Sequence record: PQ416618.1
From: Escherichia phage vB_VIPECOMC06
Strand: one strand, 5' to 3'
Length of the DNA stretch: 64,000 nucleotides
The notes below the pieces were generated by a model. The model was not told the DNA's origin and searched no databases. It saw only the letters and a program-made list of their open reading frames with translations. The translations under genes and the position numbers were made by a program. Positions 22,263 to 53,718 of this stretch are shown piece after piece; the stretch's first letter is position 1; every line of letters begins with the position of its first letter.

Positions 22263-22736
22263 ATGTTATTATCAGGCGCAAAATATAAAGAAGAAAAACA
22301 AAAATTTTATGATGCACAGAATGGTAAGTGTCCTATTTGCCACCGTGAATTAGACCCTGATGTTCAAGGTAACCATCTTGACCACGACCACGAATTAAAC
22401 GGGCCAAAAGCAGGTAGAGTTCGTGGGTTACTCTGTAATCTGTGCAACGCAGCAGAAGGCCAAATGAAGCATAAGTTCAACCGTTCGGGTCTTAAAGGAC
22501 GTGATGTCGACTACCTCGAATGGCTTGAAGCTCTTCTTGCTTATTTGAAACAAGATTATTCTGATAATAATATCCATCCTAATTTTGTTCCAGACAAAAC
22601 TAAAGAGTTCTCAAGACTAGGTAAAGAGGAAATGATGGCCGAGATGCTTCAAAGAGGATTTGAATATAATGAATCTGATACTAAAACACAATTAATAGCT
22701 TCATTCAAAAAGCAGCTTAGAAAGAGTTTAAAATGA
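22263..22736 (+). CDS. 49: endonuclease VII (Holliday junction resolvase)
   Basis: MLLSGAKYKEEKQKFYDAQNGKCPIC..HLDHDHELNGPKAG..RGLLCNLCN; 157 aa as in T4 gp49. Confidence 0.9.
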   Translation: MLLSGAKYKEEKQKFYDAQNGKCPICHRELDPDVQGNHLDHDHELNGPKAGRVRGLLCNLCNAAEGQMKHKFNRSGLKGRDVDYLEWLEALLAYLKQDYSDNNIHPNFVPDKTKEFSRLGKEEMMAEMLQRGFEYNESDTKTQLIASFKKQLRKSLK

Positions 22737-24550
22737 AAATTGAAAAAGAAATTGAAGGATTAATTCATAAAACTAATAAAGATCTTTTGAACGAGAATGC
22801 TAATAAAGATTCTCGTGTTTTTCCAACTCAACGGGACCTTATGGCTGGTATTGTGTCTAAGCACATTGCCAAAAATATGGTCCCGTCTTTTATTATGAAA
22901 GCACATGAAAGCGGAATTATCCATTTCCATGATATTGATTATTCCCCTGCTCTTCCATTTACTAATTGTTGTTTAGTAGATTTAAAGGGAATGCTTGAAA
23001 ATGGGTTTAAGCTAGGTAATGCTCAAATTGAAACGCCTAAATCTATCGGTGTTGCTACTGCAATTATGGCACAAATTACCGCACAGGTTGCTTCCCATCA
23101 ATATGGCGGAACGACTTTTGCTAATGTAGATAAAGTACTTTCTCCTTATGTTAAACGCACCTATGCAAAACATATTGAGGATGCAGAAAAATGGCAAATC
23201 GCTGATGCGTTGAATTATGCCCAATCTAAAACAGAAAAAGACGTATACGATGCATTTCAAGCTTATGAGTATGAAGTAAATACTCTTTTTAGCTCAAACG
23301 GTCAAACGCCTTTTGTAACAATTACATTTGGTACTGGAACTGACTGGACTGAACGAATTATTCAGAAGGCAATTCTTAAAAACCGCATTAAAGGCCTTGG
23401 TCGTGATGGAATAACTCCTATTTTCCCTAAACTTGTTATGTTCGTTGAAGAGGGTGTCAATCTTTATAAAGACGACCCGAACTACGATATTAAGCAGCTT
23501 GCTCTAGAGTGTGCAAGCAAAAGAATGTATCCTGATATTATTTCAGTTAAGAACAATAAAGCTATCACCGGTTCATCTATTCCTGTTTCTCCAATGGGTT
23601 GTCGTAGTTTCTTGAGTGTATGGAAAGATTCGACAGGTAATGAAATTCTTGATGGGCGTAATAATCTTGGTGTTGTAACACTGAATCTTCCTCGTATTGC
23701 GTTAGATTCTTATATTGGAACACAGTTCAATGAACAAAAATTTACTGAATTGTTCAATGAGCGAATGGATCTGTGTTTTGAAGCATTGATGTGTAGAATT
23801 AGTTCCTTAAAAGGAGTTAAAGCTACTGTTGCTCCTATTCTTTACCAAGAAGGTGCATTTGGGGTCCGTCTTAAACCTGATGATGATATAATTGAGTTAT
23901 TTAAAAACGGTAGAAGTTCAGTGTCCTTAGGATACATTGGAATTCACGAATTGAATATTCTTGTCGGACGTGATATTGGACAGGAAATTTTGACTAAAAT
24001 GAATGCTCGTCTTAAGCAGTGGACTGAAAGAACCGGTTTTGCTTTTAGCTTGTATTCTACTCCTGCTGAAAACCTGTGCTATCGATTCTGTAAACTTGAT
24101 ACTGAGAAATATGGAAGGGTAAAAGATGTTACTGATAAAGGCTGGTACACTAATAGTTTCCACGTTTCGGTAGAAGAAAATATTACTCCGTTTGAAAAGA
24201 TTTCTCGCGAAGCCCCATATCATTTCATTGCGACTGGCGGACACATTTCTTATGTTGAACTTCCTGATATGAAAAATAACCTAAAAGGTCTTGAGGCTGT
24301 CTGGGATTATGCTGCGCAACATTTAGATTATTTTGGTGTTAATATGCCGGTAGATAAATGTTTTACGTGTGGAAGTACTCATGAAATGACTCCTACTGAA
24401 AACGGATTTGTTTGTTCTATTTGTGGAGAAACTGATCCTAAAAAGATGAACACAATAAGAAGAACTTGTGGTTATTTGGGAAATCCGAATGAACGCGGAT
24501 TTAATCTCGGCAAAAATAAAGAAATCATGCATAGGGTTAAACACCAATGA
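22733..24550 (+). CDS. nrdD: anaerobic ribonucleoside-triphosphate reductase (class III)
   Basis: 605 aa; C-terminal Zn ribbon CFTCGS..CSICG and glycyl radical motif RRTCGYLG; uninterrupted (no intron). Confidence 0.95.
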   Translation: MKIEKEIEGLIHKTNKDLLNENANKDSRVFPTQRDLMAGIVSKHIAKNMVPSFIMKAHESGIIHFHDIDYSPALPFTNCCLVDLKGMLENGFKLGNAQIETPKSIGVATAIMAQITAQVASHQYGGTTFANVDKVLSPYVKRTYAKHIEDAEKWQIADALNYAQSKTEKDVYDAFQAYEYEVNTLFSSNGQTPFVTITFGTGTDWTERIIQKAILKNRIKGLGRDGITPIFPKLVMFVEEGVNLYKDDPNYDIKQLALECASKRMYPDIISVKNNKAITGSSIPVSPMGCRSFLSVWKDSTGNEILDGRNNLGVVTLNLPRIALDSYIGTQFNEQKFTELFNERMDLCFEALMCRISSLKGVKATVAPILYQEGAFGVRLKPDDDIIELFKNGRSSVSLGYIGIHELNILVGRDIGQEILTKMNARLKQWTERTGFAFSLYSTPAENLCYRFCKLDTEKYGRVKDVTDKGWYTNSFHVSVEENITPFEKISREAPYHFIATGGHISYVELPDMKNNLKGLEAVWDYAAQHLDYFGVNMPVDKCFTCGSTHEMTPTENGFVCSICGETDPKKMNTIRRTCGYLGNPNERGFNLGKNKEIMHRVKHQ

Positions 24551-25017
24551 ATTATGATAGATTTTATCCTTGCGATTTTGTGAATGGCCCTGGTTGCAGG
24601 GTCGTTCTTTTCGTTACAGGTTGTTTGCATAAATGCGAAGGGTGTTATAATAAATCAACATGGAACGCTAGAAATGGTATTCCATTCACGGGTGAAACAC
24701 TAGAGCAATTAATTGAATGTTTGAATAATGATTATATAGAAGGATTAACTATAACTGGAGGAGACCCTCTCTATCCTGATAACCGAGATGATGTTCATTG
24801 CATTGCTCAAACAGTAAAAAATCTTTATCCCAATAAAAGCATTTGGTTGTGGACAGGGTACAAGTTTGAAGATATTAAACAACTAGAAATGCTTAAATAT
24901 GTTGATGTTATTATTGATGGGAAGTATGAGAAAAATCTTCCGACTAAAAAGCTGTGGCGAGGATCAGATAATCAGCGACTTTGGTCAAATACCGATGGGG
25001 TGTGGAAACATGATTAA
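24547..25017 (+). CDS. nrdG: anaerobic RNR activating enzyme (radical SAM)
   Basis: N-terminal Cys-rich radical-SAM-type region (FVTGCLHKCEGCYNK); ATGA coupled to nrdD. Confidence 0.9.
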   Translation: MNYDRFYPCDFVNGPGCRVVLFVTGCLHKCEGCYNKSTWNARNGIPFTGETLEQLIECLNNDYIEGLTITGGDPLYPDNRDDVHCIAQTVKNLYPNKSIWLWTGYKFEDIKQLEMLKYVDVIIDGKYEKNLPTKKLWRGSDNQRLWSNTDGVWKHD

Positions 25018-36462: not shown

Positions 36463-39174
36463 ATGAAAGAATTTTACTTAACGGTTGAACAGATTGGTGA
36501 TTCAATTTTTGAACGTTACATCGATTCTAATGGCCGTGAACGTACTCGTGAAGTAGAATATAAACCATCACTGTTTGCTCATTGTCCAGAAAGTCAGGCT
36601 ACGAAATATTTCGATATCTACGGTAAGCCGTGTACTCGTAAGTTGTTCGCCAATATGCGTGATGCCTCCCAATGGATTAAACGCATGGAAGATATCGGAC
36701 TTGAAGCACTTGGCATGGACGATTTCAAATTGGCGTATTTGTCTGACACTTATAACTATGAAATCAAATACGACCATACAAAAATTCGTGTGGCTAACTT
36801 CGACATCGAAGTAACATCTCCAGATGGGTTCCCTGAGCCGGCACAAGCAAAACATCCTATTGATGCTATCACCCATTATGACTCAATTGACGACAGGTTC
36901 TACGTATTTGATCTATTGAATTCTCCATATGGTAATGTAGAAGAATGGTCTATCGAAATTGCGGCTAAGCTTCAAGAACAAGGTGGTGATGAAGTTCCAT
37001 CTGAAATTATCGATAAAATCATTTATATGCCGTTCGATAACGAAAAAGAATTGTTGATGGAATATCTCAACTTCTGGCAACAGAAAACTCCTGTCATTTT
37101 GACTGGATGGAACGTTGAGTCATTTGATATTCCATATGTGTATAACCGAATCAAGAATATTTTTGGCGAATCTACTGCGAAACGTTTATCACCACATCGT
37201 AAAACTCGTGTTAAAGTTATCGAAAACATGTATGGTTCTCGTGAAATCATTACATTGTTCGGTATCTCTGTTCTTGATTACATTGACCTTTACAAAAAAT
37301 TCTCTTTTACCAATCAACCGTCATATTCCCTGGATTACATTTCAGAATTTGAATTGAACGTTGGTAAACTGAAATATGACGGCCCTATTTCTAAGCTTCG
37401 TGAAAGCAATCACCAACGATATATTTCTTATAACATTATCGACGTGTATCGTGTATTGCAAATTGATGCTAAGCGTCAGTTCATCAACTTGAGTTTGGAC
37501 ATGGGTTATTATGCTAAAATTCAGATTCAATCTGTGTTTAGCCCAATTAAAACATGGGATGCTATTATTTTTAATAGCCTTAAAGAGCAGAACAAGGTGA
37601 TTCCACAAGGTCGTTCTCATCCGGTTCAACCTTATCCTGGCGCTTTTGTTAAGGAACCTATTCCAAATCGATACAAATATGTAATGAGTTTCGACCTTAC
37701 ATCTCTGTATCCAAGTATTATTCGCCAAGTGAATATTAGCCCAGAAACAATAGCAGGAACGTTTAAAGTAGCTCCATTGCATGATTATATTAACGCTGTT
37801 GCTGAACGTCCTTCTGATGTGTACAGTTGTTCTCCTAACGGCATGATGTATTATAAAGACCGTGACGGTGTTGTTCCAACTGAAATCACTAAGGTCTTTA
37901 ATCAACGTAAAGAACATAAAGGTTACATGCTTGCAGCTCAACGTAATGGTGAAATAATTAAAGAGGCATTGCATAATCCTAATCTTTCTGTTGACGAACC
38001 ATTAGATGTTGATTATCGTTTCGACTTCAGTGATGAGATTAAAGAAAAGATTAAAAAGTTGTCTGCTAAATCTCTTAATGAAATGTTGTTTAGAGCTCAA
38101 CGTACTGAAGTTGCAGGTATGACTGCCCAAATTAACCGTAAATTGCTCATCAACTCGCTTTATGGTGCGCTTGGCAACGTTTGGTTCCGTTATTACGATT
38201 TGCGTAATGCTACTGCAATCACAACATTTGGTCAAATGGCTTTACAGTGGATTGAACGTAAAGTTAATGAATATCTGAATGAAGTTTGTGGCACAGAAGG
38301 TGAAGCTTTCGTTCTTTATGGTGATACAGACTCTATTTACGTATCTGCCGATAAAATTATCGATAAGGTTGGTGAATCTAAATTCCGTGATACCAACCAT
38401 TGGGTAGACTTCTTAGATAAGTTTGCACGTGAACGTATGGAACCAGCTATTGATAGAGGTTTCCGTGAAATGTGTGAATACATGAACAATAAACAACACT
38501 TAATGTTCATGGACCGAGAAGCTATCGCTGGGCCTCCACTCGGTTCTAAAGGTATTGGCGGATTCTGGACCGGTAAGAAACGTTATGCATTAAACGTGTG
38601 GGATATGGAAGGTACTCGTTACGCTGAGCCTAAACTCAAAATCATGGGTCTAGAGACTCAGAAATCTTCGACTCCTAAAGCAGTACAGAAAGCTCTTAAA
38701 GAATGTATTCGTCGTATGCTTCAAGAAGGTGAAGAATCATTACAAGAATATTTTAAAGAGTTTGAAAAAGAATTCCGTCAATTGAATTATATTAGCATCG
38801 CGTCGGTATCTTCTGCGAATAACATTGCTAAATATGATGTAGGTGGATTCCCTGGTCCCAAATGCCCGTTCCATATTCGTGGAATTCTGACGTATAACCG
38901 GGCTATCAAAGGTAATATCGATGCACCGCAAGTTGTAGAAGGTGAAAAAGTATATGTTCTGCCTTTACGTGAAGGAAACCCATTCGGTGATAAATGTATC
39001 GCATGGCCTTCCGGTACTGAAATCACAGATTTAATTAAAGACGACGTACTTCATTGGATGGACTACACTGTTCTCCTTGAGAAGACATTTATTAAACCAC
39101 TTGAAGGATTCACATCAGCAGCGAAACTCGAGTATGAGAAGAAAGCATCTCTGTTCGATATGTTCGATTTTTGA
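36463..39174 (+). CDS. 43: DNA polymerase (family B) gp43
   Basis: 903 aa; exo motifs FDIEV and YNIIDV, polymerase motifs DLTSLYPSII, KLLINSLYG, YGDTDS; length and N-terminus typical of the RB69-type enzyme. Confidence 0.97.
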   Translation: MKEFYLTVEQIGDSIFERYIDSNGRERTREVEYKPSLFAHCPESQATKYFDIYGKPCTRKLFANMRDASQWIKRMEDIGLEALGMDDFKLAYLSDTYNYEIKYDHTKIRVANFDIEVTSPDGFPEPAQAKHPIDAITHYDSIDDRFYVFDLLNSPYGNVEEWSIEIAAKLQEQGGDEVPSEIIDKIIYMPFDNEKELLMEYLNFWQQKTPVILTGWNVESFDIPYVYNRIKNIFGESTAKRLSPHRKTRVKVIENMYGSREIITLFGISVLDYIDLYKKFSFTNQPSYSLDYISEFELNVGKLKYDGPISKLRESNHQRYISYNIIDVYRVLQIDAKRQFINLSLDMGYYAKIQIQSVFSPIKTWDAIIFNSLKEQNKVIPQGRSHPVQPYPGAFVKEPIPNRYKYVMSFDLTSLYPSIIRQVNISPETIAGTFKVAPLHDYINAVAERPSDVYSCSPNGMMYYKDRDGVVPTEITKVFNQRKEHKGYMLAAQRNGEIIKEALHNPNLSVDEPLDVDYRFDFSDEIKEKIKKLSAKSLNEMLFRAQRTEVAGMTAQINRKLLINSLYGALGNVWFRYYDLRNATAITTFGQMALQWIERKVNEYLNEVCGTEGEAFVLYGDTDSIYVSADKIIDKVGESKFRDTNHWVDFLDKFARERMEPAIDRGFREMCEYMNNKQHLMFMDREAIAGPPLGSKGIGGFWTGKKRYALNVWDMEGTRYAEPKLKIMGLETQKSSTPKAVQKALKECIRRMLQEGEESLQEYFKEFEKEFRQLNYISIASVSSANNIAKYDVGGFPGPKCPFHIRGILTYNRAIKGNIDAPQVVEGEKVYVLPLREGNPFGDKCIAWPSGTEITDLIKDDVLHWMDYTVLLEKTFIKPLEGFTSAAKLEYEKKASLFDMFDF

Positions 39175-39214
39175 TATAATGTCATGGACGGTAAACTAAT
39201 TAAATGAGAGAAAT

Positions 39215-39850
39215 ATGAAAACTACTCCTATTACTATCGCTATTGACGCAATCATAAAACAAGCTTCTTCTTTGGCCGCTATGGCCAAAGTAATTAGTCA
39301 AAACCCTGCTCGTTATAATGCTATTCTAGAAACTCTTCGACGCCCAGGACTTAGTAATTATGAAAGCCGAGTAATTATTACAGGTGTTGGTAAGAATGCT
39401 AATATTGCAACTAAAGCTTCTGAGACATTTGCTTCACTCGGTATCCCGAGTATGTACTTGAACACAGGGCATTATTCTCATGGTGATGCAGGATTCATTG
39501 CGCCTAATGATGTGTTGATTCATATTAGTCGTTCTGGTAAAACTGAAGAAATGATAGGTGTGGCTAAGCATCTTAAAATGATTCGTCCGAACGTCAAACA
39601 GATTCTGTTGCATTGTAACCCTGACATTCCACAAGAATACGAAGCTCTTTTTGATTATACGTTCTGTACAGGCATCGCAGTAGAGGTTGATGAGAATTCT
39701 CTGGCTCCGACCATGTCCACTACATTGTTGTTAGCGCTTATCGATACGTTTGCTATCAACCTTTCGTCTGAACGTGGATTTACCTCTAATGACTTCCTTA
39801 AGTTCCACCCTGGCGGTGCACTAGGTGCCATGTTACGAGGCGAACAATGA
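39215..39850 (+). CDS. SIS-domain sugar-phosphate isomerase (KdsD/GutQ-like arabinose-5-phosphate isomerase, no CBS domains)
   Basis: SIS core VIITGVGKNANIATKASETFASLGIPSMYLNTGHYSHGDAGFIAPNDVLIHISRSGKTEEM parallels the KdsD N-terminal domain. Confidence 0.7.
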   Translation: MKTTPITIAIDAIIKQASSLAAMAKVISQNPARYNAILETLRRPGLSNYESRVIITGVGKNANIATKASETFASLGIPSMYLNTGHYSHGDAGFIAPNDVLIHISRSGKTEEMIGVAKHLKMIRPNVKQILLHCNPDIPQEYEALFDYTFCTGIAVEVDENSLAPTMSTTLLLALIDTFAINLSSERGFTSNDFLKFHPGGALGAMLRGEQ

Positions 39851-39990
39851 AAGCAATAACAATAGGACTTTTACTATTGATGCTTGTCATGACTATCTAC
39901 TGGAGCTTAACGGCTCCAGTATTGATTCCAACACTTGTAATCGGATGGATTATGATTGGACTACAAGCAAAGTATGAATGCTTTAACTAG
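39847..39990 (+). CDS. small hydrophobic peptide (47 aa)
   Basis: ATGA-coupled to the SIS gene; two hydrophobic segments; not in ORF track (<60 aa). Confidence 0.35.
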   Translation: MKAITIGLLLLMLVMTIYWSLTAPVLIPTLVIGWIMIGLQAKYECFN

Positions 39991-40003
39991 AATAGTGTAC
40001 AAT
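39979..40003 (+). promoter_or_regulatory. putative MotA-dependent middle promoter for the nucleotidyltransferase/kinase gene
   Basis: MotA-box TGCTTTA (39979-39985) with TACAAT 12 bp downstream. Confidence 0.4.
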
Positions 40004-40031
40004 ACACCTACTTACCAATGAGGACCACAAC

Positions 40032-41717
40032 ATGAAAAAAGCTGTTATTCTTGGTGCTGGATTGGCAACTCGTTTGTATCCAATAACGCATCATATTCCT
40101 AAGGTGCTTGTTAACTATAAACAAGACACTATTCTGAGCAATTTGTATACAATTTATTCTGACCTTGGCGCAGATGAAATTATTGTAGTAGTTCATTCAA
40201 AATTTGCTGAAACTGTTCGAGCTTATTGTGAGCAAGAAGGGTTCAATGTGACTATTCGTACAGTTGATGAAGCGTATGGTTCTGCTTATGCTCTTGCTAA
40301 ATTACACAAAGATTTAGACGGCCATAATGTAATTGTTAACTGGTGTGATATTATTCCTGATTTCGGTTCATGGTCTTGGAATGTTAACGCAATCTATGTT
40401 AAGGGTGACGAATGTCGATATAATTTCGACGGTGAAAATATCACTAACGTAGGTTCAACAGGTGGTAATGTTGTAGGAATTTATCAGTTCAAAGACTGGG
40501 AATTCTATATGGGTTCTACTGATGAGGAAATTCATGAATACTGCAAAGGACGTGATTTCGTAGAATTCCTTTACGGCAGCGCATTCAATAAATCAGAGCT
40601 TATGAATCTAATTGATTTAGGTGATATGCCTAAACTTGAAAAAGCTCATGAAGTTCGTGAACTTAATCGTAGTTTTAATGCAGTTGAAATTGGTGAAGAA
40701 ACTGTAACTAAATTCGCATTAACCGAACAGGGCCGAGCTCTTCAGAAAGATGAGATTTCATGGTATCTTAAAGTGAAATCAGATTCAGTTCCTCAGTTAG
40801 TTTCTGTTAATGAAAATAACTTTGAAATGGAACGCATTAAAGGTAAGCCGGCATTTGAATATATTAAATCCAAATCAAGTCTTGCTCGTCCACAAATTGT
40901 TGATGCAATTTTAGACGCACTGAAATTCAGCACAGACACTTATTTTGTAAGTCCTGAAACTGTTCGTCGTGATTTCACTAAAGAATTCTATACGAAAGTT
41001 ATTGATCGTTGTGAAAGTATTCAACCATTGATTGATTCATTTGGTAAAATCACACATGTAAACTACACTAAGATTGGGCGTCTGAAGCCAATGTTGAAAC
41101 AAGCTTTAGAACACCTTATTCGTTATCATAACCGTTCTCAGGGACAGTACTCTGTTATTCATGGTGACCCGAACTTCAGTAATACTATGATTACTGATAA
41201 CGGTGAAGTCAAGTTTATCGACCCTCGTGGATATTTTGGCGAAACCAAGATTTACGGGCCAAAATTGTATGATGAAGCTAAAGTGCTTTATGCTGTTTCA
41301 GGTTATGATGAATTCAACGCTAATCCGACCTGGGGGCAGTTTACTATTGATGAAACAACTTGTAATGTGACTATTAACATCAATCCATTAGTTTACAAAT
41401 ATGGAAAGATGAGTTCGTTTAACGAGTATCATCATTTGGCAGTGGCAATTATCTGGATTGCATTAGGTGGTTATTTCAAGAATAATCCACTTAAAGCGGT
41501 AGCCGCATATTATAAAGGTATGGAACTTCTGACTAAGCAATTACGTAACATGGGCCGTGTACTTCAGGACGGCTCTATTAGTTATGACGTAGCAGAACCT
41601 GTAACGGCTACTCTGATTACAAAAAATCCTGGTAAATGGGTACTAACTGATAAAGAAACTGGTGTTTCCTATCGTCCAATCGGTGGCGATATCACTCATC
41701 AATGGGAACGAATCTAA
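40032..41717 (+). CDS. bifunctional sugar-1-phosphate nucleotidyltransferase / anomeric sugar kinase (561 aa)
   Basis: N-terminal RmlA/MurU-type motif AVILGAGLATRLYP; C-terminal APH/choline-kinase-type catalytic loop VIHGDPNFSN and FIDPRGYFG. Confidence 0.7.
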   Translation: MKKAVILGAGLATRLYPITHHIPKVLVNYKQDTILSNLYTIYSDLGADEIIVVVHSKFAETVRAYCEQEGFNVTIRTVDEAYGSAYALAKLHKDLDGHNVIVNWCDIIPDFGSWSWNVNAIYVKGDECRYNFDGENITNVGSTGGNVVGIYQFKDWEFYMGSTDEEIHEYCKGRDFVEFLYGSAFNKSELMNLIDLGDMPKLEKAHEVRELNRSFNAVEIGEETVTKFALTEQGRALQKDEISWYLKVKSDSVPQLVSVNENNFEMERIKGKPAFEYIKSKSSLARPQIVDAILDALKFSTDTYFVSPETVRRDFTKEFYTKVIDRCESIQPLIDSFGKITHVNYTKIGRLKPMLKQALEHLIRYHNRSQGQYSVIHGDPNFSNTMITDNGEVKFIDPRGYFGETKIYGPKLYDEAKVLYAVSGYDEFNANPTWGQFTIDETTCNVTININPLVYKYGKMSSFNEYHHLAVAIIWIALGGYFKNNPLKAVAAYYKGMELLTKQLRNMGRVLQDGSISYDVAEPVTATLITKNPGKWVLTDKETGVSYRPIGGDITHQWERI

Positions 41718-42103
41718 TGCACCGTGTAAAAAACATGCTTAATCTTTGTTTTGATGTCGATGATTGTATAACAGAGTGGAATAACAATCGTGATTACGTG
41801 AACTTCAAACCAGACGTCGAAATGGTATCTGCCATTAATGCTCTGTATGATGCAGGGCATACCATAACGCTTTACACTGCTCGCGGTATGAAGTCAGTCG
41901 GTCCTGGTCGTATAGCAATCGACATTCTCCCAAGTCTGATTCAGAACTTGGCAAACATTGGCTTGAAGTACCATAATTTGCTAACACATAAACCAGTATA
42001 TGATTGGATTATCGACGACAAAGCTATGCGTCCTGACGAATTCAAAGCTCTTATGAATAAAGGCGAATTCGAAACATTTAAATCATATAAACCGAATCTA
42101 TAA
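41717..42103 (+). CDS. HAD-superfamily phosphatase (KdsC-like)
   Basis: HAD motif I FDVDDCITE, motif II TLYTARG, motif III K (THKPVYD), motif IV IIDDKA; start uncertain (41717 or 41735). Confidence 0.65.
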   Translation: MHRVKNMLNLCFDVDDCITEWNNNRDYVNFKPDVEMVSAINALYDAGHTITLYTARGMKSVGPGRIAIDILPSLIQNLANIGLKYHNLLTHKPVYDWIIDDKAMRPDEFKALMNKGEFETFKSYKPNL

Positions 42104-42157
42104 TAATTTAAGTAAGACCTGCAAAAACCATCGCAACAATTAACGCGAGATGCAAAA

Positions 42158-43318
42158 ATGAATACCTTTAAAATCGGAACGAATTTTGATTTAGCTCTTC
42201 TTGATAAAATCGTAGAGCTCAATAAAACTTATCCTAATAGCTTGATAAACGAAGTATACGGCTCTACAAGAGAAATGGCTTTTGTAGCAGCCAGACCTGA
42301 TTTTAGGCTTCCTGACGTTGACAAAAAGATGTTAGAAGATTACGTTAAACGTTGTAACGAATTAGGTATTTGCTTTAACTATACACTCAACACGATAAAT
42401 CCTGGTTCAAAAAGAGAACTAGTTGAGTGGAAGAAGAAAGCTATTCAGGATTATGTTCAGTATCTTTGGTCAATAGGCGTATGGCGTATTACTATCGCTA
42501 ACCCTGTTGTTATGGAAATTGTTCGTGAAGTCAATAAAGACATTGAGATTGAAGTTTCAACAATTCTACATGTCGATGCTGTAACTCAAATCAAATACTT
42601 GCATGACCAGTATAATATCAAAAAGGTCTGCTGTGGAATTCATAAGAACCGTTCAGTTTCTTTCCTGAAGCGTGCAGCAGAGTTTTGCAATAAGAACAAT
42701 ATAATATTTGAAGTTCTTGTAAATGAGTTCTGTTCTAATGCTGGTAAAGGGTATACAACACATTGTAGTTATCGTGACTCTTGCTATATTTTCCATAGCA
42801 CCGATGTTACAGTAGATGATGCCAAATCCTTAAATGGATATCCAATGCAACACTGCATTAAAGCTCGTGATACAGACCCATTTAACTGGTTGAGAACTCG
42901 TTTTGTTCGTCCTCAAGATTTGAAACTTTATAATGATATTGGTATCACTCAATTTAAAGTTTCTGGACGTACAGGTAGCACCGACTACATTTTGAAAGTT
43001 CTTGAAGCTTATGCTTCTGAAAAGTTTGAAGGTAATTTGTTAGAACTGTGGAAGCCTTTAGAGACTATTTTCACTCTTGAAAACGAAACTGAGTTTTCAC
43101 ATACGGTAAATATTGAAACCTCTTTGTTAGATGGCTTTTTAGAAAAAAGGTGGTTCAAACATCCAGATTTCGATTGTGCTAATGAAATCTGTGGGACGAC
43201 GTGTACATATTGTGAAAGATATTATAAACGTCAGTTATCTAAAAACGGGTTATCAGAAAATTCTATATCTATTATTGATATAACTAACTCTGATGACGCT
43301 TTGAGGTACCCAGAATGA
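42158..43318 (+). CDS. Cys-rich enzyme of unknown function (386 aa)
   Basis: Cys cluster EFCSNAGKGYTTHCSYRDSC and C-terminal CANEICGTTCTYC; weak resemblance to the TIM-barrel peptidase-U32 (RlhA/UbiU) pattern; part of the sugar-nucleotide cassette. Confidence 0.55.
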   Translation: MNTFKIGTNFDLALLDKIVELNKTYPNSLINEVYGSTREMAFVAARPDFRLPDVDKKMLEDYVKRCNELGICFNYTLNTINPGSKRELVEWKKKAIQDYVQYLWSIGVWRITIANPVVMEIVREVNKDIEIEVSTILHVDAVTQIKYLHDQYNIKKVCCGIHKNRSVSFLKRAAEFCNKNNIIFEVLVNEFCSNAGKGYTTHCSYRDSCYIFHSTDVTVDDAKSLNGYPMQHCIKARDTDPFNWLRTRFVRPQDLKLYNDIGITQFKVSGRTGSTDYILKVLEAYASEKFEGNLLELWKPLETIFTLENETEFSHTVNIETSLLDGFLEKRWFKHPDFDCANEICGTTCTYCERYYKRQLSKNGLSENSISIIDITNSDDALRYPE

Positions 43319-43458
43319 TTTCTAGAAAAACTTTTAACCACCAACTTAATGAAGAGATTTTGACTATTAAAATTAACAGCAACGAACAAATTCTTAAACA
43401 GGCCCATAAGGGCCTGTTTGAAACTAAAGCGGCTAAAGTGATTAAAGAACCTAACTAG
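43315..43458 (+). CDS. hypothetical small ORF (47 aa)
   Basis: ATGA-coupled to upstream gene; contains CAGGCCC-ATAA-GGGCCTG hairpin; may be noncoding. Confidence 0.2.
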   Translation: MISRKTFNHQLNEEILTIKINSNEQILKQAHKGLFETKAAKVIKEPN

Positions 43459-43591
43459 AATACTACGCTGATGCATTTCTTCATAGTGTTCTTGGAAGTA
43501 TCGATGCCGAAGCTTTACGTTATATCAACATCGCTAAGAAATTCAAATAAGCTTTATGAATTGAGTATATAATAACTGTATTGAGGTAAAC

Positions 43592-44308
43592 ATGGGAAAA
43601 CATAACACAATGAAATATATTAAAGCCGCAGATTTTCAATCCGCATTTAAAGCAGTCAATCGTGAAATTTTAGAAAACCCGGAATTCGTAACTGATTCTC
43701 GTATTGGACGTTGTAATGAAATTGGGTCTATGACAGTAGTTGTTGACACTCCATCTTCATTCAAAATGACCGATCCACGTATTAACCGCATCTCTTATGA
43801 ATATGCTGAAGATTTCTGGAAGTTTATGATTTCTGGTGGTACTGATGCAGAAGAAGCATTTAAGGCATATCCTAACGTTGCTAAATTTATTTCTAAACCT
43901 AAATCAGACGCTTTGCCTGCAAACTTCAACACTTTCTATGGTCCACGAATTGCGGCCCAGTTACCAGCTCTTTTAAAAGAACTTAAAGAGAAACCTAACT
44001 CCCGAAGAGTTGTGTTCCAAATTCTTGAAAGTTCAGATCAGGCTTTGCTTGATTCAGACGAAACACTTGAATATCCATGTACTGACTCAGTGACTTATTA
44101 TATTCGTGATGGTAAGCTTTATACCCACTGTCATATGCGTTCACAGAACTGTGCTGTTGTTATGCAGTTGGATTTTTATCTCCAAGGAAAATTACTTCAT
44201 TATATCGCTAAAGAATGTGGTGTAGAAGTTGGTGATTATACTCATACCATGGTAAGTGCCCATGTGTTTGAACGTGATTTTGATTATGTTAAAGGATTCC
44301 TTGACTAA
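43592..44308 (+). CDS. 42: thymidylate-synthase-fold pyrimidine hydroxymethylase (dCMP hydroxymethylase-like)
   Basis: TS-family pattern NSRR, catalytic Cys in YPCTDSVTYYIRDGK, MRSQN; position of gene 42 between 43 and uvsX; N-terminal half differs from T4 gp42 as recalled. Confidence 0.6.
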   Translation: MGKHNTMKYIKAADFQSAFKAVNREILENPEFVTDSRIGRCNEIGSMTVVVDTPSSFKMTDPRINRISYEYAEDFWKFMISGGTDAEEAFKAYPNVAKFISKPKSDALPANFNTFYGPRIAAQLPALLKELKEKPNSRRVVFQILESSDQALLDSDETLEYPCTDSVTYYIRDGKLYTHCHMRSQNCAVVMQLDFYLQGKLLHYIAKECGVEVGDYTHTMVSAHVFERDFDYVKGFLD

Positions 44309-45207
44309 TGGCTATTTTCCGCGTACCTATCTTGAGTATGCGGTCTTATGAAACTGGACAGTATGCTATCCTTAAGGATGGCAACTTCCAACTTCATTTG
44401 CACCGTGCTAATCCAGGTGATGTGATTACATATCCACGTAATGCATCTGATATTAAAGAATGCGAACGTCTTTTCCCAGAATTTAAGTTTGTTCCATTAT
44501 GGTATAAAGATAACGCGTATAACACTCGTAAATATTTCTGGTCTGAAAATGAATTTGTGGTTGATTCATTAATTGATTATTATGATTGTGATTTTCTAAT
44601 CACAGATATCACTGGATATGACGGCGCTTTTGATGTGGAATTCAATTTCAATATCACTGCAGACCCTAATAAACCACGTTTTTATATTGACGAATTCTTA
44701 AAAACCGACATGTTGTCTGTTAATCGTTCACTTCAAACTACTGTGTTGAATGAACGTCAAAAAGAAGTGCTGGTTAACGCAGGTGCAGATGGTAATAAGA
44801 TTATCGTAACCCAGAAAGTTATACGTCCTTCCATCATGCAGCGTCTTGTAGGTGATTTGGCTCCTATTCATCTAGATGGTATTTTTCATCCATTTCGAAT
44901 TAGTGACCCATGCTATCGTTTTGAACAAGTGGTTGAATGCGCAATTCAATTAGGCCAACCGCTTTATATAACCGATCCAAATAATAGCTTCGACAGAAAT
45001 AAGTATCCTGAAGAAGCGCTGATTCGAATTTTTAATCCAACTAAAACTGAGTACTATCAAATTCTTAAAGGACGTCCGAAGATTCAATATTTCGAAAATC
45101 CTGAAGAAGTATTCCATCCAGGTCTTGGTGAGTTCATCTACTTTAATGCTTTAATTTCTTCGCCGTATAATATACCTAAATATGAAGATGTCGTAATCGA
45201 GGAATAA
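44308..45207 (+). CDS. hypothetical protein in the beta-gt slot (299 aa); candidate DNA sugar transferase
   Basis: TAATG-coupled to gene 42; occupies the locus where T4 has beta-glucosyltransferase; no motif recognised. Confidence 0.5.
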   Translation: MAIFRVPILSMRSYETGQYAILKDGNFQLHLHRANPGDVITYPRNASDIKECERLFPEFKFVPLWYKDNAYNTRKYFWSENEFVVDSLIDYYDCDFLITDITGYDGAFDVEFNFNITADPNKPRFYIDEFLKTDMLSVNRSLQTTVLNERQKEVLVNAGADGNKIIVTQKVIRPSIMQRLVGDLAPIHLDGIFHPFRISDPCYRFEQVVECAIQLGQPLYITDPNNSFDRNKYPEEALIRIFNPTKTEYYQILKGRPKIQYFENPEEVFHPGLGEFIYFNALISSPYNIPKYEDVVIEE

Positions 45208-45208
45208 A

Positions 45209-45757
45209 ATGGCTAAAATTATTTTAGTAGATGGCCCGGATAATGCCGGTAAAACAACTTTCATTAATGACATAATGGAAATTAGTGAAAGATATGTAAA
45301 GATTGATTTCCCTAAACGAACAGTTGATGGACGTTTCGATGTTAAGTCTCGAAATGAAGTTGGCTGTTTCGAAACGATGTTGAATTATTTAGACCCTACT
45401 AAGATTTATCTGTTAGACCGTGGATATATTAGTAACTGGGTTTATGGACGTATTCGACAAGATGCGGACTCGGTTCTTGACGTTTATGAACAGGATTATG
45501 TTCGTCTTTGCCAAAACCATGATGTGTTCACAATTATTTTAACACGTAACGAAATGACTGAAAGTTTTGAAGACGACCTTATTACTTTGTCTTCATTCGG
45601 TTTTAATACAGTCATTTCATATTTTGAAGAGTTTGCAATTCATAACAAAATTCAAACGTATCAATTACTTAATCATGATGGTGCTAACAAAGTTATAGGA
45701 TTTAATGCAAGCGAACGTAATAATTTGATTACAGAAATTATCAAATGGGCTCGTTAA
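45209..45757 (+). CDS. P-loop nucleoside/nucleotide kinase-like protein (182 aa)
   Basis: Walker A ILVDGPDNAGKTT, LLDRGY; resembles dNK/TMK-type kinases, not T4 gp1. Confidence 0.55.
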   Translation: MAKIILVDGPDNAGKTTFINDIMEISERYVKIDFPKRTVDGRFDVKSRNEVGCFETMLNYLDPTKIYLLDRGYISNWVYGRIRQDADSVLDVYEQDYVRLCQNHDVFTIILTRNEMTESFEDDLITLSSFGFNTVISYFEEFAIHNKIQTYQLLNHDGANKVIGFNASERNNLITEIIKWAR

Positions 45758-45856
45758 GAGCCTGTTTAAAGTTTTAAATGCTGTATAACCGTTAGTATAT
45801 AATCGTCTTATCTTTTAAACATGAGTAAAATATAATGATGCCTATGGAAAAATACA

Positions 45857-47029
45857 ATGTCTGATTTAAAATCTCGTCTGATTAAAGCTTCTACTTCTAA
45901 AATGACTGCAGACTTGACTAAGTCTAAGCTGTTTAATAATCGTGATGAAGTCCCTACTCGTATTCCGATGTTGAATATTGCATTAGGTGGTGCACTGAAT
46001 GCCGGGTTGCAATCAGGCTTAACTATTTTTGCTGCTCCTTCTAAACACTTTAAAACGTTGTTTGGACTGACCATGGTTGCAGCGTATATGAAGAAATATA
46101 AAGATGCAATTTGTTTGTTCTATGATTCAGAATTTGGTGCTTCAGAATCTTATTTTCGTTCAATGGGTGTTGATTTAGACCGTGTAGTTCATACCCCGAT
46201 TCAATCTGTCGAACAACTTAAAGTTGATATGACTAATCAGCTTGACGCGATTGAACGCGGTGATAAAGTTATTATCTTTATCGATTCAATCGGTAATACT
46301 GCATCTAAGAAAGAAACCGAAGATGCGTTGAACGAGAAAGTTGTAGGTGATATGTCTCGTGCTAAGGCACTTAAATCTCTGTTCCGCATTGTGACTCCTT
46401 ATCTGACTATTAAAGATATTCCATGTGTTGCAATCAACCACACAGCAATGGAAATCGGCGGACTATATCCTAAAGAGATTATGGGTGGTGGTACAGGTAT
46501 TCTTTACTCTGCTAACACTGTGTTCTTTATCTCTAAACGTCAGGTTAAAGAAGGTACAGAATTGACTGGTTATGACTTCACACTGAAAGCAGAAAAATCT
46601 CGTACAGTTAAAGAGAAATCTACTTTCCCGATCACGGTTAATTTTGATGGCGGTATTGACCCATTCAGTGGCTTGTTAGAAATGGCAACTGAAATTGGTT
46701 TTGTAGTTAAGCCTAAAGCTGGTTGGTATGCTCGCGAATTCCTTGACGAAGAAACAGGCGAAATGATTCGTGAAGAAAAATCATGGCGTGCTAAAGCTAC
46801 TGATTGTGTAGAATTCTGGGGGCCGTTGTTTAAACATAAGCCTTTCCGTGACGCAATTGAAACTAAATATAAACTAGGTGCTATCTCTTCTATTAAAGAA
46901 GTTGATGATGCTGTTAACGACCTTATTAATTGCAAAGCAACAACTAAAGTTCCGGTTAAAACTTCTGATGCTCCGTCTGCAGCAGATATAGAAAACGACC
47001 TTGACGAAATGGAAGATTTCGATGAATAA
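45857..47029 (+). CDS. uvsX: RecA-like recombinase UvsX
   Basis: Walker A region FAAPSKHFKT, 390 aa, acidic C-terminus DLDEMEDFDE; order uvsX-40-41. Confidence 0.95.
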   Translation: MSDLKSRLIKASTSKMTADLTKSKLFNNRDEVPTRIPMLNIALGGALNAGLQSGLTIFAAPSKHFKTLFGLTMVAAYMKKYKDAICLFYDSEFGASESYFRSMGVDLDRVVHTPIQSVEQLKVDMTNQLDAIERGDKVIIFIDSIGNTASKKETEDALNEKVVGDMSRAKALKSLFRIVTPYLTIKDIPCVAINHTAMEIGGLYPKEIMGGGTGILYSANTVFFISKRQVKEGTELTGYDFTLKAEKSRTVKEKSTFPITVNFDGGIDPFSGLLEMATEIGFVVKPKAGWYAREFLDEETGEMIREEKSWRAKATDCVEFWGPLFKHKPFRDAIETKYKLGAISSIKEVDDAVNDLINCKATTKVPVKTSDAPSAADIENDLDEMEDFDE

Positions 47030-53107: not shown

Positions 53108-53196
53108 AATATCTCCTTAGTTACCTTATTATTTATTACGCTTTATAAAATTAATGTTAGAATTAACTCTCTTATACTGAATTGAAAGGAAAAATA

Positions 53197-53718
53197 ATGG
53201 CGCACTTTAACGAATGTTCACAACTTATTTCTGGTGTTGATAAAGCAGAAGAAGCTTATTTTAATGCTCTGATTCACGAAGATAAAGACCCACTGCAGGT
53301 AATGCTTGATATGCAGAAATCTTTACAAGTTCGTCTGGCAAATGACAAGCCTGAACATAACAAACATCCTGATGAATTGGCCACTGCTGGTGATGTTGTT
53401 GATTGGCTGCGTAATCAGAAAGATTATATTGATGATGAATTCCGTGAACTGTTGACTTCACTTGGCGGTATGAGCAATGGTGAAAAAGCCGCTAGCTCTG
53501 TATGGAAACCGTGGAAGGCACAACATGCTGAATATCGAAATCGTCGTATCGATGAACTGTCTCCTGAAGACCAGCTTGAAATTAAATTCGAGATGATTGA
53601 TATCCTCCACTTTGTCCTGAACATGTTCCAAGGTCTGGGTCTTTCTGCTGAAGAAATCTTTAAACTGTATTACTTGAAAAACCAACACAACTTTGAACGT
53701 CAGGATAATGGTTACTAA
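53197..53718 (+). CDS. 56: dCTP pyrophosphatase (dCTPase) gp56
   Basis: MAHFNECSQLISGVDKAEE...EIFKLYYLKNQHNFERQDNGY matches the T4 gp56 pattern; ATG at 53197. Confidence 0.85.
   Translation: MAHFNECSQLISGVDKAEEAYFNALIHEDKDPLQVMLDMQKSLQVRLANDKPEHNKHPDELATAGDVVDWLRNQKDYIDDEFRELLTSLGGMSNGEKAASSVWKPWKAQHAEYRNRRIDELSPEDQLEIKFEMIDILHFVLNMFQGLGLSAEEIFKLYYLKNQHNFERQDNGY

What the first reader, a model, noticed from the sequence alone, without database searches (positions are those of the whole stretch)
39215..43458. Sugar-nucleotide biosynthesis cassette inserted between DNA polymerase (43) and hydroxymethylase (42)
Where T4 has only imm between genes 43 and 42, this phage carries about 4.2 kb encoding a KdsD-like SIS isomerase, a small membrane peptide, a fused sugar-1-P nucleotidyltransferase/anomeric kinase, a KdsC-like HAD phosphatase and a 386-aa Cys-rich enzyme, all co-oriented and partly translationally coupled. 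Together they form a plausible route from ribulose-5-P to arabinose-5-P (isomerase), free arabinose (phosphatase), arabinose-1-P (kinase) and NDP-arabinose (nucleotidyltransferase). RB69-type phages are known to carry arabinosyl-hmC and to lack alpha/beta-gt; this cassette would supply the activated sugar donor. The enzymology is inference from domain motifs.
Basis: partly seen in the sequence, partly recalled or inferred. Interest (0 to 1): 0.9.

Follow-up and report, generated by a model that had tools for sequence, protein, structure and literature searches.

The report
Phage DNA arabinosylation cassette, already published
This is the already published gene cluster by which RB69-type phages make an activated arabinose sugar to decorate their DNA; one gene in it, wrongly counted as a sugar enzyme, looks instead like an oxygen-independent hydroxylase that could let the phage modify its DNA without air.

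Summary
Six co-oriented ORFs sit at exactly 39215-43458 in an RB69-type Mosigvirus (97.7% nt identity to RB69). The core interpretation, an NDP-arabinose supply line, is right but already known. It was proposed for RB69 in 2018 and, as summarised by Lee et al. 2026, reconstituted in phage HY126, whose proteins are 97-100% identical to the window's.

Three details are outdated.
- Step order: Ru5P -> Ara5P -> Araf-1,5-P2 -> Araf-1-P -> UDP-Araf. The phosphatase acts after the kinase and there is no free arabinose.
- The modified base is 5-O-arabinosyl-5-hydroxycytosine, not ara-hmC.
- "Gene 42" is an FMN/O2-dependent 5-hydroxy-dCMP synthase, not a hydroxymethylase.

The 386-aa Cys-rich protein is a Peptidase_U32 member and probably not a sugar enzyme. 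Phages lacking it make the same sugar. It is the most conserved protein in the region. In other genera it is translationally coupled to a chorismate mutase. In uncultured phages its homologs cluster with chorismate mutase or DAHP synthase, DNA glycosyltransferases and dCMP deaminase, almost never with a TS homolog. U32 enzymes (RlhA, TrhP, UbiU/V) are prephenate-dependent, O2-independent hydroxylases. My inference, untested and not found in the literature I could read: it is an anaerobic route to the 5-hydroxypyrimidine.

The parts
39215..39850 (+). SIS-domain D-arabinose-5-phosphate isomerase (= RB69 gp55; Ru5P -> Ara5P). It has no CBS domains.
   Evidence: Pfam SIS 1.7e-10. NCBIfam KpsF/GutQ subfamily 2e-32 and KdsD 1e-30, both below the full-length cut-offs. 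PDB 3etn 5.5e-25 and 2xhz 6.5e-19. 100% identical to HY126.
39847..39990 (+). 47-aa peptide with two hydrophobic helices (= RB69 ORF054c). A T4-like backbone gene of the imm region, probably not part of the pathway.
   Evidence: PHROG 3610, unknown function. The RB69 note reads 'similar to T4 42-imm intercistronic region'. A 56% identical match lies beside imm in Dhakavirus VR5.
40032..41717 (+). Bifunctional enzyme (AfhE type, = RB69 ORF53_52c). The C-terminal APH/choline-kinase-like domain makes Ara5P -> Araf-1,5-P2. The N-terminal sugar-1-P nucleotidyltransferase makes Araf-1-P + UTP -> UDP-Araf.
   Evidence: NTP_transferase 8.5e-10 at residues 3-99; weak kinase hits at residues 344-409. 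The GAGLATRL and HGDPNFSN motifs are read directly from the sequence. 97% identical to HY126. Activities are as reported for HY126 AfhE.
41702..42103 (+). HAD-superfamily phosphatase (AfhF type, = RB69 gp51): Araf-1,5-P2 -> Araf-1-P.
   Evidence: TIGR01689 EcbF/BcbF capsule phosphatase 4e-13. PDB 9iqw 2.8e-87 and 1xpj 5e-10. DVDD motif. 99.2% identical to HY126.
42158..43318 (+). U32-family Fe-S protein (= RB69 gp50). Inferred to be a prephenate-dependent, O2-independent pyrimidine C5 hydroxylase, not a sugar enzyme.
   Evidence: Pfam Peptidase_U32 6e-11. AF2 model pLDDT 92.6, top PDB match the U32 structure 5d88. Ten invariant Cys in 63 homologs. Gene-neighbourhood evidence.
43315..43458 (+). 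Truncated ORF049c: 47 aa here, 79 aa in most Mosigviruses. A small U32 companion of unknown function that sits where other genera have a chorismate mutase.
   Evidence: A 4-nt deletion relative to RB69. Not a chorismate mutase: no Pfam hit, hhalign probability 0.1%. Full length in 154 of 162 records.
43592..44308 (+). Thymidylate-synthase homolog (= RB69 gp48): FMN/O2-dependent 5-hydroxy-dCMP synthase. It lies outside the flagged span but belongs to the same system.
   Evidence: PDB 9iqc/9ir2 1e-161. 99% identical to RB69 gp48. Function shown. EYPC...RSQNCAVVMQLDF motif.
44308..45207 (+). Putative first DNA arabinosyltransferase (= RB69 gp46:47, GT1).
   Evidence: PHROG 3891. Assigned by structure comparison in Lee et al. 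Table 1. Intact here, split in the RB69 record.
45209..45757 (+). Thymidylate-kinase-like nucleotide kinase (= RB69 gp45).
   Evidence: PHROG 761 thymidylate kinase 5e-45. Lee et al. Table 1.

Best explanation
The flagged span is the sugar-donor half of the published arabinosyl-5-hydroxycytosine DNA-hypermodification cluster of RB69/HY126-type phages.

Sugar steps, shown in a near-identical phage:
- The SIS isomerase converts host ribulose-5-P to D-arabinose-5-P.
- The C-terminal kinase domain of the 561-aa enzyme makes arabinofuranose-1,5-bisphosphate.
- The HAD phosphatase removes the 5-phosphate.
- The N-terminal nucleotidyltransferase domain makes UDP-arabinofuranose.

Downstream genes complete the system. 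The TS homolog makes 5-hydroxy-dCMP with FMN and O2, kinases raise it to the triphosphate, the polymerase incorporates it, and glycosyltransferases arabinosylate 5hoC in DNA.

Inferred by me: the 386-aa U32 protein is not a sugar enzyme. It is an Fe-S, prephenate-dependent, O2-independent hydroxylase that provides the 5-hydroxypyrimidine when O2 is absent. This parallels UbiU/V versus UbiI/H/F, TrhP versus TrhO, and the phage's own NrdDG versus NrdAB.
For: Identity of the cassette:
- 97.7% nt identity to RB69. Proteins are 97-100% identical to HY126.
- PDB entries 9iqw and 9iqc match at E 3e-87 and 1e-161.
- The published pathway is.

Evidence for the U32 reading:
1. Pfam U32 above threshold, and a U32 fold.
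2. Ten invariant Cys in 63 homologs. Cys1 and Cys3 of the family's Fe-S motif align with UbiU, UbiV, RlhA and TrhP.
3. The family is prephenate-dependent and O2-independent, and RlhA makes 5-hydroxycytidine.
4. In 55 of 56 phage records a chorismate mutase of this clade lies beside the U32 gene. The five aligned examples keep all catalytic residues. The pair stays together when the cluster is rearranged in Thanatos.
5. In 28 dereplicated uncultured viral loci, 8 have CM and/or DAHP synthase next to the U32 gene, 14 have a GT1-type DNA glycosyltransferase, 10 have an AfhE-like enzyme (9 of them with a SIS isomerase), 3 have an abutting dCMP deaminase, and only 1 has a weak TS hit.
6. Acinetobacter and Dhakavirus phages make the cassette without a U32 gene. 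DLP3 still has arabinosyl-5hoC, so the U32 is not needed for the sugar.
7. The U32 gene was found only in phages of facultative anaerobes. No Acinetobacter or Rhizobium phage appears among the listed carriers, although 57 and 22 of them carry the TS homolog.
8. The U32 is 80-87% identical across genera, against 64-80% for the polymerase.
9. The window encodes NrdD/NrdG and a dCTPase, while the known 5hodCMP synthase needs O2.
Against: - No U32 enzyme has been shown to hydroxylate anything in vitro.
- Nothing here shows that gp50 binds Fe-S, uses prephenate, or touches a nucleotide.
- Cys2 and Cys4 of the canonical motif do not align cleanly.
- Mosigviruses, this window included, have no chorismate mutase of their own. 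The small ORF in that slot is unrelated and truncated here.
- Dhakaviruses infect E. coli yet lack the U32 gene.
- The aerobe/anaerobe contrast rests on few independent lineages and on truncated tool listings.
- Lee et al. label gp50 'sugar or heterocycle reductase' without discussion.
- I could not read He et al. 2026 or Mahler et al. 2025, which may assign it.
Confidence: 0.85

Rival explanations
1. All five proteins form one linear sugar route: Ru5P -> Ara5P -> free arabinose (phosphatase) -> Ara-1-P (anomeric kinase) -> NDP-arabinose. This would feed arabinosyl-hydroxymethylcytosine made through a gp42 hydroxymethylase.
For: The domain content is compatible. The same order of steps is still printed in Table 1 of Lee et al.. 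Ara-hmC was the 2018 assignment.
Against: For HY126, whose proteins are 97-100% identical, the kinase is reported to act on Ara5P and the phosphatase on the 1,5-bisphosphate. The base is 5hoC with a direct ether link, and the TS homolog is a hydroxylase that uses O2. The U32 is absent from phages that make the same sugar.
Confidence: 0.07
2. The U32 protein tailors the sugar or the heterocycle after hydroxylation, for example as a reductase or epimerase-like Fe-S enzyme. It would then be part of donor or adduct maturation, not of hydroxylation.
For: It sits between the sugar genes and the TS homolog. Lee et al. label it 'sugar or heterocycle reductase'. Some distant homologs neighbour epimerase-family genes.
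Against: It is at least 80% identical in phages that attach different sugars: arabinose in RB69, and a pentose discussed as possibly xylose in Thanatos. Distant homologs sit with galactofuranose-type genes (L012, L042). It is absent from DLP3 and Lazarus-type phages, and DLP3 has the same arabinosyl-5hoC. The recurrent link to chorismate mutase and DAHP synthase has no sugar logic.
Confidence: 0.12
3. The U32 protein, with its chorismate mutase where present, acts on RNA or on host metabolism. It could hydroxylate tRNA or rRNA like TrhP and RlhA, drain chorismate, or be a true protease. Its place in the cluster would then be incidental.
For: All characterised nucleic-acid U32 enzymes act on RNA. 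The historical annotation is peptidase.
Against: Its neighbours are consistently deoxynucleotide and DNA-glycosylation genes, in T4-like and unrelated phages alike: dCMP deaminase, thymidylate-kinase-like, dUTPase/DCD, NT5C, dNK, GT1, TAGT. It is only 16-21% identical to the E. coli paralogs.
Confidence: 0.08

Closest known systems
RB69 gp45-gp55 / HY126 Afh cluster (arabinosyl-5-hydroxycytosine DNA hypermodification; Thomas 2018, Mahler 2025, He 2026, Lee 2026)
   Same: Same genes in the same order between gp43 and uvsX. Proteins are 97-100% identical to HY126 and 98-100% to RB69. It is the same system.
   Different: Only allelic differences. ORF049c is truncated, as in HY126. The 561-aa and 299-aa genes are intact where the RB69 record splits them.
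T4 hmC glucosylation (gp42 dCMP hydroxymethylase + alpha/beta-glucosyltransferases using host UDP-glucose)
   Same: Same logic: a TS-superfamily enzyme makes a hydroxyl-bearing dCMP analogue, a dCTPase removes dCTP, and glycosyltransferases act on DNA. Same genomic neighbourhood.
   Different: The base is 5-hydroxy-C made with flavin and O2, not 5-hydroxymethyl-C made with folate. The sugar donor is not a host metabolite, so the phage must encode its synthesis.
KdsD/GutQ arabinose-5-phosphate isomerases and the HAD phosphatases of Kdo and capsule pathways (KdsC; EcbF/BcbF)
   Same: An SIS catalytic domain with KpsF/GutQ-type similarity, and a HAD fold with the DxD motif.
   Different: The isomerase lacks the CBS pair and scores below the family cut-offs. 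The phosphatase matches the EcbF/BcbF model and not KdsC, and its reported substrate is a 1,5-bisphosphate.
AmgK-MurU and other kinase + sugar-1-P nucleotidyltransferase salvage pairs
   Same: An APH-like sugar kinase combined with a MurU-like uridylyltransferase. MurU is the top structural match reported by Lee et al..
   Different: Here the two are fused in one 561-aa protein. The kinase works on a sugar 5-phosphate, so a phosphatase step is needed between the two activities.
U32-family prephenate-dependent hydroxylases: RlhA (ho5C2501 in 23S rRNA), TrhP (ho5U34 in tRNA), UbiU-UbiV (anaerobic ubiquinone)
   Same: The Pfam U32 domain, a TIM-barrel fold, conserved cysteines in the Fe-S region, and a genomic link to prephenate supply. 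RlhA performs the chemistry needed here, hydroxylation at C5 of cytosine.
   Different: A separate subfamily at 16-21% identity. The cysteine spacing differs (C192/C203/C209/C233) and there is an extra C-terminal CX4CX3CX2C. The substrate would be a deoxynucleotide or DNA. No activity has been shown.
Paired aerobic and anaerobic enzymes for one step: phage NrdAB/NrdDG; E. coli UbiIHF/UbiUV; TrhO/TrhP
   Same: A flavin/O2-dependent enzyme and an O2-independent Fe-S enzyme encoded side by side for what would be the same product. NrdD and NrdG are in this window.
   Different: For gp48/gp50 the redundancy is inferred and has not been demonstrated.

Membership tests
RB69/HY126 arabinosyl-5hoC hypermodification cluster | Gene set and order: gp43 - SIS isomerase - bifunctional kinase/NTase - HAD - (U32) - TS homolog - GT1 - TMK-like - uvsX | tested here: met
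   Per-protein identity 97-100% to HY126 and 98-100% to RB69.
RB69/HY126 arabinosyl-5hoC hypermodification cluster | TS homolog with the 5hodCMP-synthase signature (L143E, D169N, N177D in E. coli ThyA numbering) | tested here: inconclusive
   The EYPC and RSQNCAVVMQLDF motifs are present. Read without gaps they give L143E, D169N and N177D as in Lee et al., but MAFFT inserts a 2-residue gap and maps them differently. Near-identity to the experimentally characterised gp48 and PDB 9iqc settles function by homology.
RB69/HY126 arabinosyl-5hoC hypermodification cluster | Arabinosylated 5-hydroxycytosine replaces C in virion DNA | not testable with these tools
   Needs nucleoside LC-MS of this phage. 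Shown for RB69, NP and HY126-type phages.
KpsF/GutQ/KdsD arabinose-5-phosphate isomerase | SIS catalytic domain with KpsF-type similarity | tested here: met
   Pfam SIS 1.7e-10. TIGR00393 2e-32 over profile positions 2-153 of 268. PDB 2xhz and 3etn.
KpsF/GutQ/KdsD arabinose-5-phosphate isomerase | C-terminal CBS domain pair and a score above the equivalog cut-off | tested here: not met
   The protein is 211 aa and only the SIS half of the profile is matched. It scores 107 bits against a KdsD cut-off of 505.
   No KdsC hit. The best NCBIfam match is TIGR01689 EcbF/BcbF (4e-13, below its cut-off), with HAD-IIIA only at 0.026. PDB 9iqw and 1xpj. The HAD DxD motif is present.
Sugar-1-phosphate nucleotidyltransferase + APH-like kinase fusion (AfhE type) | N-terminal G-x-G-x-x-T-R-L NTase domain and C-terminal HxDxxxxN kinase motif in one polypeptide | tested here: met
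   NTP_transferase 8.5e-10 at residues 3-99. Weak kinase-family hits at residues 344-409. Both motifs read in the sequence. PHROG 4098 over the full length.
Peptidase_U32 / prephenate-dependent hydroxylases | Pfam PF01136 domain and U32 TIM-barrel fold | tested here: met
   42.4 bits against a cut-off of 22.4. AF2 pLDDT 92.6, top PDB hit 5d88 with TM 0.70 on the target.
Peptidase_U32 / prephenate-dependent hydroxylases | Four-cysteine Fe-S motif (CX6CX15-16CX3-4C, or the UbiU variant CX6CX16CX38C) | tested here: inconclusive
   Cys1 and Cys3 align (C192, C209). C203 and C233 are invariant, but their equivalence to Cys2 and Cys4 is not established.
Peptidase_U32 / prephenate-dependent hydroxylases | Dependence on prephenate and independence of O2 | not testable with these tools
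   Genomic association only: chorismate mutase beside the U32 gene in 55 of 56 phage records, and CM or DAHP synthase in 8 of 28 uncultured loci.
   Not tested by assay here. By homology the protein is 99% identical to RB69 gp48, which yields 5hodC with oxygen from 18O2 and binds FMN.
AroQ (CM_2) chorismate mutase, for ORF 43315-43458 / RB69 ORF049c | CM_2 profile match and the catalytic Arg/Arg/Lys/Glu/Ser/Gln set | tested here: not met
   No Pfam hit at E<=1. hhalign probability 0.1% against the phage CM alignment. True CMs occupy this slot in other genera.

The most novel reading that the evidence does not exclude
The U32 gene (42158-43318) encodes a new subfamily of Fe-S, prephenate-dependent hydroxylases that make 5-hydroxypyrimidine deoxynucleotides, or hydroxylate DNA, without O2.

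In RB69-type phages it would be the anaerobic twin of the flavin/O2-dependent 5hodCMP synthase. That would let a gut phage which destroys dCTP still replicate in anoxia.

In many uncultured phages that lack the TS-type enzyme it would be the only hydroxylase feeding DNA glycosylation. Phage-encoded chorismate mutase and DAHP synthase would boost the oxygen donor.
Probability: 0.45. Interest if true: 0.75.

Novelty: already known. Interest (0 to 1): 0.4.

Why it matters
The cassette itself matters because it explains how these phages build a sugar donor their hosts do not make, and so shield their DNA from restriction and CRISPR. That story is already published, so this window adds another near-identical copy.

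What could matter is the U32 gene. The only known route to 5-hydroxy-dCMP needs molecular oxygen. These phages carry an anaerobic ribonucleotide reductase and a dCTPase, and their hosts are gut and sediment bacteria. An O2-independent hydroxylase would resolve that contradiction.

If confirmed, it would be:
- the first U32 enzyme acting in DNA metabolism;
- the first reason for phages to carry shikimate-pathway genes;
- a marker for a large set of uncultured phages likely to have hydroxy-pyrimidine-based glycosylated DNA.

It would also offer a small soluble substrate for a protein family whose chemistry has never been reconstituted in vitro.

Tried and rejected
- A sequence search of the PDB with the U32 protein found nothing at E<=0.1. 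Only the fold search found 5d88.
- Promoter and terminator scans of 39000-46000 were at or below shuffle expectation, so they say nothing about transcription units.
- ORF049c as a diverged chorismate mutase: rejected.
- A local pairwise alignment of the Cys region with UbiU gave an ambiguous register, so I do not claim one-to-one equivalence of Cys2 and Cys4.
- MAFFT alignment of the TS homolog with E. coli ThyA did not reproduce the published D169N/N177D mapping, because of a 2-residue gap.
- The gut scaffold MT836175, which matched the CM, has a 373-aa multidomain CM protein and no U32 gene. It is neither an informative exception nor support.
- A literature search for the Afh gene names returned only noise.
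- He et al. 2026 and Mahler et al. 2025 are not held.
- I did not determine the biomes of the metagenomic contigs, so the anaerobic ecology of the distant U32 clade is untested.
- I considered and rejected the membrane peptide as part of the pathway.
- My first per-locus tblastn script failed because all loci are stored in one file. I reran it correctly.


Full report
**What is there.** The window comes from an RB69-type Mosigvirus. The stretch 39100-43600 is 97.7% identical to RB69 and 98.5% identical to phage F2, and about 150 phage genomes carry it at 95-99% identity.
- SIS protein, 39215-39850
- 47-aa hydrophobic peptide, 39847-39990
- 561-aa protein, 40032-41717
- 133-aa protein, 41702-42103
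- 386-aa protein, 42158-43318
- 47-aa ORF, 43315-43458

All are on the + strand, between DNA polymerase (36463-39174) and a thymidylate-synthase homolog (43592-44308). Overlaps of 4, 16 and 4 nt confirm partial translational coupling. The ORFs correspond to RB69 ORF055c through ORF049c.

**What the sugar genes are.**
- The 211-aa protein has an SIS domain. It resembles KpsF/GutQ/KdsD isomerases (2e-32; PDB 3etn, 2xhz) but lacks their CBS half.
- The 561-aa protein has an N-terminal sugar-1-P nucleotidyltransferase domain with the GAGLATRL motif. Its C-terminal region has weak aminoglycoside/choline-kinase-type hits and an HGDPNFSN motif.
- The 133-aa protein is a HAD phosphatase. It matches the EcbF/BcbF capsule-phosphatase model and PDB 1xpj, and it matches PDB 9iqw almost exactly (E 3e-87). 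It does not match KdsC.

**What is already published.** Thomas et al. 2018 (PMC6024577) proposed ORF055c and the fused ORF53_52c as UDP-arabinose enzymes. They also showed that the split in the RB69 record is a sequencing error; the window has the intact 561-aa gene. Lee et al. 2026 (PMC13326640) report three things.
- RB69 DNA carries mono- and di-arabosylated 5-hydroxycytosine with a direct ether link, not ara-hmC.
- The TS homolog gp48 makes 5-hydroxy-dCMP, takes its oxygen from 18O2, and binds FMN.
- Citing He et al. 2026 on phage HY126: the bifunctional enzyme AfhE phosphorylates Ara5P to Araf-1,5-bisphosphate, the HAD enzyme AfhF removes the 5-phosphate, and the AfhE N-terminal domain makes UDP-Araf.

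The window's proteins compare with HY126's as follows: 100% (SIS), 97% (AfhE type), 99.2% (HAD), 98.7% (TS homolog) and 98.7% (GT1). An independent 2026 paper confirms the revised chemistry for the Mosigvirus NP.

Its step order (phosphatase, then free arabinose, then anomeric kinase), its base (hmC) and its name for the flanking gene (hydroxymethylase) are superseded.

**The gene that does not fit.** The 386-aa 'Cys-rich enzyme' is a Peptidase_U32 protein (Pfam 6e-11). A confident AlphaFold model (pLDDT 92.6) has the U32 structure 5d88 as its best PDB match. Lee et al. list it only in a table, as 'sugar or heterocycle reductase', and never discuss it. Their Discussion cites the U32 RNA hydroxylases as unrelated pathways. 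I found no accessible paper linking U32 or chorismate mutase to phage 5hoC.

**Why it is unlikely to be a sugar enzyme.** Acinetobacter phage Lazarus and Dhakavirus VR5 have the isomerase/kinase-NTase/HAD/TS/GT cassette with no U32 gene. The Acinetobacter phage DLP3 still has arabinosyl-5hoC. The U32 protein stays 80-87% identical across genera in which the kinase/NTase drops to 44-73% and the polymerase to 64-80%. One of these is Shewanella phage Thanatos, which attaches a different pentose.

**What it is probably doing.** U32 proteins are now understood as Fe-S, prephenate-dependent, O2-independent hydroxylases.
- RlhA forms 5-hydroxycytidine in 23S rRNA and needs prephenate and Fe-S clusters (PMC5727448).
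- TrhP forms ho5U in tRNA.
- UbiU/V use prephenate as the oxygen donor for anaerobic ubiquinone synthesis (PMC10990095).

The phage protein has ten cysteines that are invariant across 63 homologs of 47-87% identity: C158, C177, C192, C203, C209, C233, C340, C345, C349 and C352. C192 and C209 align with the first and third Fe-S cysteines of UbiU, UbiV, RlhA and TrhP.

In Enterobacter phage Entb_45 the gene downstream of the U32, overlapping it by 4 nt, is a 79-aa AroQ chorismate mutase (Pfam CM_2, 2.4e-10). Relatives of that CM occur in 56 phage records. These include Klebsiella, Serratia, Yersinia, Edwardsiella, Erwinia, Pectobacterium, Proteus, Providencia, Morganella and Shewanella phages. 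In 55 of them the CM lies next to the U32 or TS genes. The five I aligned keep the full catalytic set R/R/K/E/S/Q (the mapping to E. coli CM residue numbers is from my memory). In Thanatos the cluster is rearranged, but U32 and CM remain an overlapping pair.

**Independent support from uncultured phages.** The U32 subfamily has hundreds of metagenomic members at 40-58% identity. I examined 28 dereplicated loci.
- 8 have a chorismate mutase, a DAHP synthase or a CM-DAHP synthase fusion beside the U32 gene.
- 14 have a homolog of the RB69-type first DNA arabinosyltransferase, 7 of them directly abutting the U32 gene.
- 10 have an AfhE-like kinase/NTase, 9 of them with a SIS isomerase.
- 3 have an abutting dCMP deaminase.
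- 2 combine the U32 with a TET-associated glycosyltransferase, dUTPase/DCD and UDP-galactopyranose mutase.
- Only 1 has even a weak TS-homolog hit.

A Pfam census of the 120 nearest neighbours ranks thymidylate-kinase-like (8), DAHP synthase (5) and CM_2 (4) at the top. Shikimate-pathway genes make little sense in a phage unless something nearby consumes prephenate.

**Why an anaerobic route makes sense.** The window also encodes NrdD and NrdG (22733-25017) and a gp56-type dCTPase (53182-53718). The phage is therefore built to make dNTPs without oxygen, and it destroys dCTP. Yet its only known source of the replacement nucleotide needs O2.

Among cultured phages, 377 records carry the TS homolog. 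These include 57 Acinetobacter and 22 Rhizobium phages, plus Agrobacterium and Sphingomonas phages. The U32 gene is in 221 records, and every host name listed is an Enterobacterales genus or Shewanella. The TS active-site motif is the same in phages with and without the U32, so the U32 is an addition and not a replacement.

**Caveats.**
- All of this is inference from family membership and gene neighbourhood.
- No U32 enzyme has been reconstituted in vitro.
- Cys2 and Cys4 of the canonical motif do not map cleanly.
- Mosigviruses have no CM of their own. The 79-aa ORF049c in that slot is unrelated (hhalign probability 0.1%) and is truncated to 47 aa here by a 4-nt deletion, as also in HY126. 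The host enzymes PheA and TyrA would have to supply prephenate.
- Dhakaviruses of E. coli lack the U32 gene.
- The host contrast rests on few independent lineages and on truncated listings.
- Two key papers were not readable.
- I cannot say whether the substrate would be dCMP, another nucleotide or DNA.

**Verdict.** The finding is real and its main interpretation is right, but it describes a system already published in 2018 and 2025-2026, and some of its details are out of date. As flagged it is 'already known' and of modest interest.

The follow-up produced one lead that I could not find in the literature available to me and that is directly testable: the U32 gene, with a chorismate mutase in most other genera, as an oxygen-independent hydroxylase for DNA hypermodification. 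I put this at about 45%, and at about 55-60% for the looser claim that the protein is a base hydroxylase of some kind acting in this pathway.

Noticed in passing
window 43315-43458: The small ORF after the U32 gene is a truncated allele (47 aa) of RB69 ORF049c (79 aa), caused by a 4-nt deletion. 154 of 162 phage records have the full length, and HY126 is also truncated (40 aa). ORF049c homologs also sit between U32 and chorismate mutase in Yersinia phages, so it is a second U32 companion of unknown function and apparently dispensable.
   Followed up: partly
window 22733-24550 and 24547-25017: Anaerobic ribonucleotide reductase NrdD (Pfam 1e-170) and its radical-SAM activase NrdG. The phage is equipped for anoxic dNTP synthesis, although its known 5-hydroxy-dCMP synthase needs O2.
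   Followed up: partly
window 53182-53718: A 178-aa dUTPase_2-family protein, the gp56-type dCTPase that removes dCTP so that only the modified cytosine nucleotide is incorporated.
   Followed up: no
window 40032-41717 and 44308-45207: Both genes are intact here (561 aa and 299 aa). The RB69 reference record splits each in two (ORF053c/052c and ORF047c/046c), which fits the published view that the RB69 splits are sequencing errors.
   Followed up: yes
window 39847-39990: A 47-aa peptide with two hydrophobic helices. It is annotated in RB69 as similar to the T4 42-imm intercistronic region, and a 56% identical match lies beside imm in Dhakavirus VR5. It is probably a backbone gene and not part of the sugar pathway.
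   Followed up: partly
window 42158-43318 versus L002, L016, L017, L018, L019: The U32 protein is the most conserved protein of the whole region across genera: 80-87% identity, against 64-80% for DNA polymerase and 44-73% for the kinase/NTase. The adjacent chorismate mutase diverges normally (33-79%).
   Followed up: partly
L045 5411-6433, L048 5321-6376, L049 5332-6387, L059 8079-9197: Uncultured phage contigs encode fused chorismate mutase-DAHP synthase proteins next to the U32 gene. L011 and L034 have stand-alone DAHP synthases there. Shikimate-pathway genes in phages appear not to have been discussed.
   Followed up: partly
L012 6028-13179 and L042 6010-13284: A cluster of GT1-type glycosyltransferase, U32, TET-associated glycosyltransferase, dUTPase/DCD and UDP-galactopyranose mutase, with no TS homolog within 7 kb. 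This suggests a different glycosylated hydroxy-pyrimidine made with the U32 as the only hydroxylase.
   Followed up: partly
L006 7447-9086, L009 7504-9083, L061 6540-8110: In very large phage contigs (up to 466 kb) with DnaE-type polymerases, the U32 gene directly follows a dCMP deaminase and lies near thymidylate kinase and UDG. This hints at a hydroxy-uracil or hydroxy-cytosine nucleotide pathway.
   Followed up: no
L007 8001-14360: A contig with bacterial-looking genes (GH43 and dockerin) carries two U32 paralogs among nucleoside-salvage genes: NT5C, an NMN transporter, dNK, nucleoside deoxyribosyltransferase and a radical SAM/SPASM protein.
   Followed up: no
L017 (Klebsiella phage F48) and L018 (Shewanella phage Thanatos-2): These cassettes have no detectable SIS isomerase, so they would presumably depend on host KdsD/GutQ for arabinose-5-phosphate or use a different sugar.
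   Followed up: no
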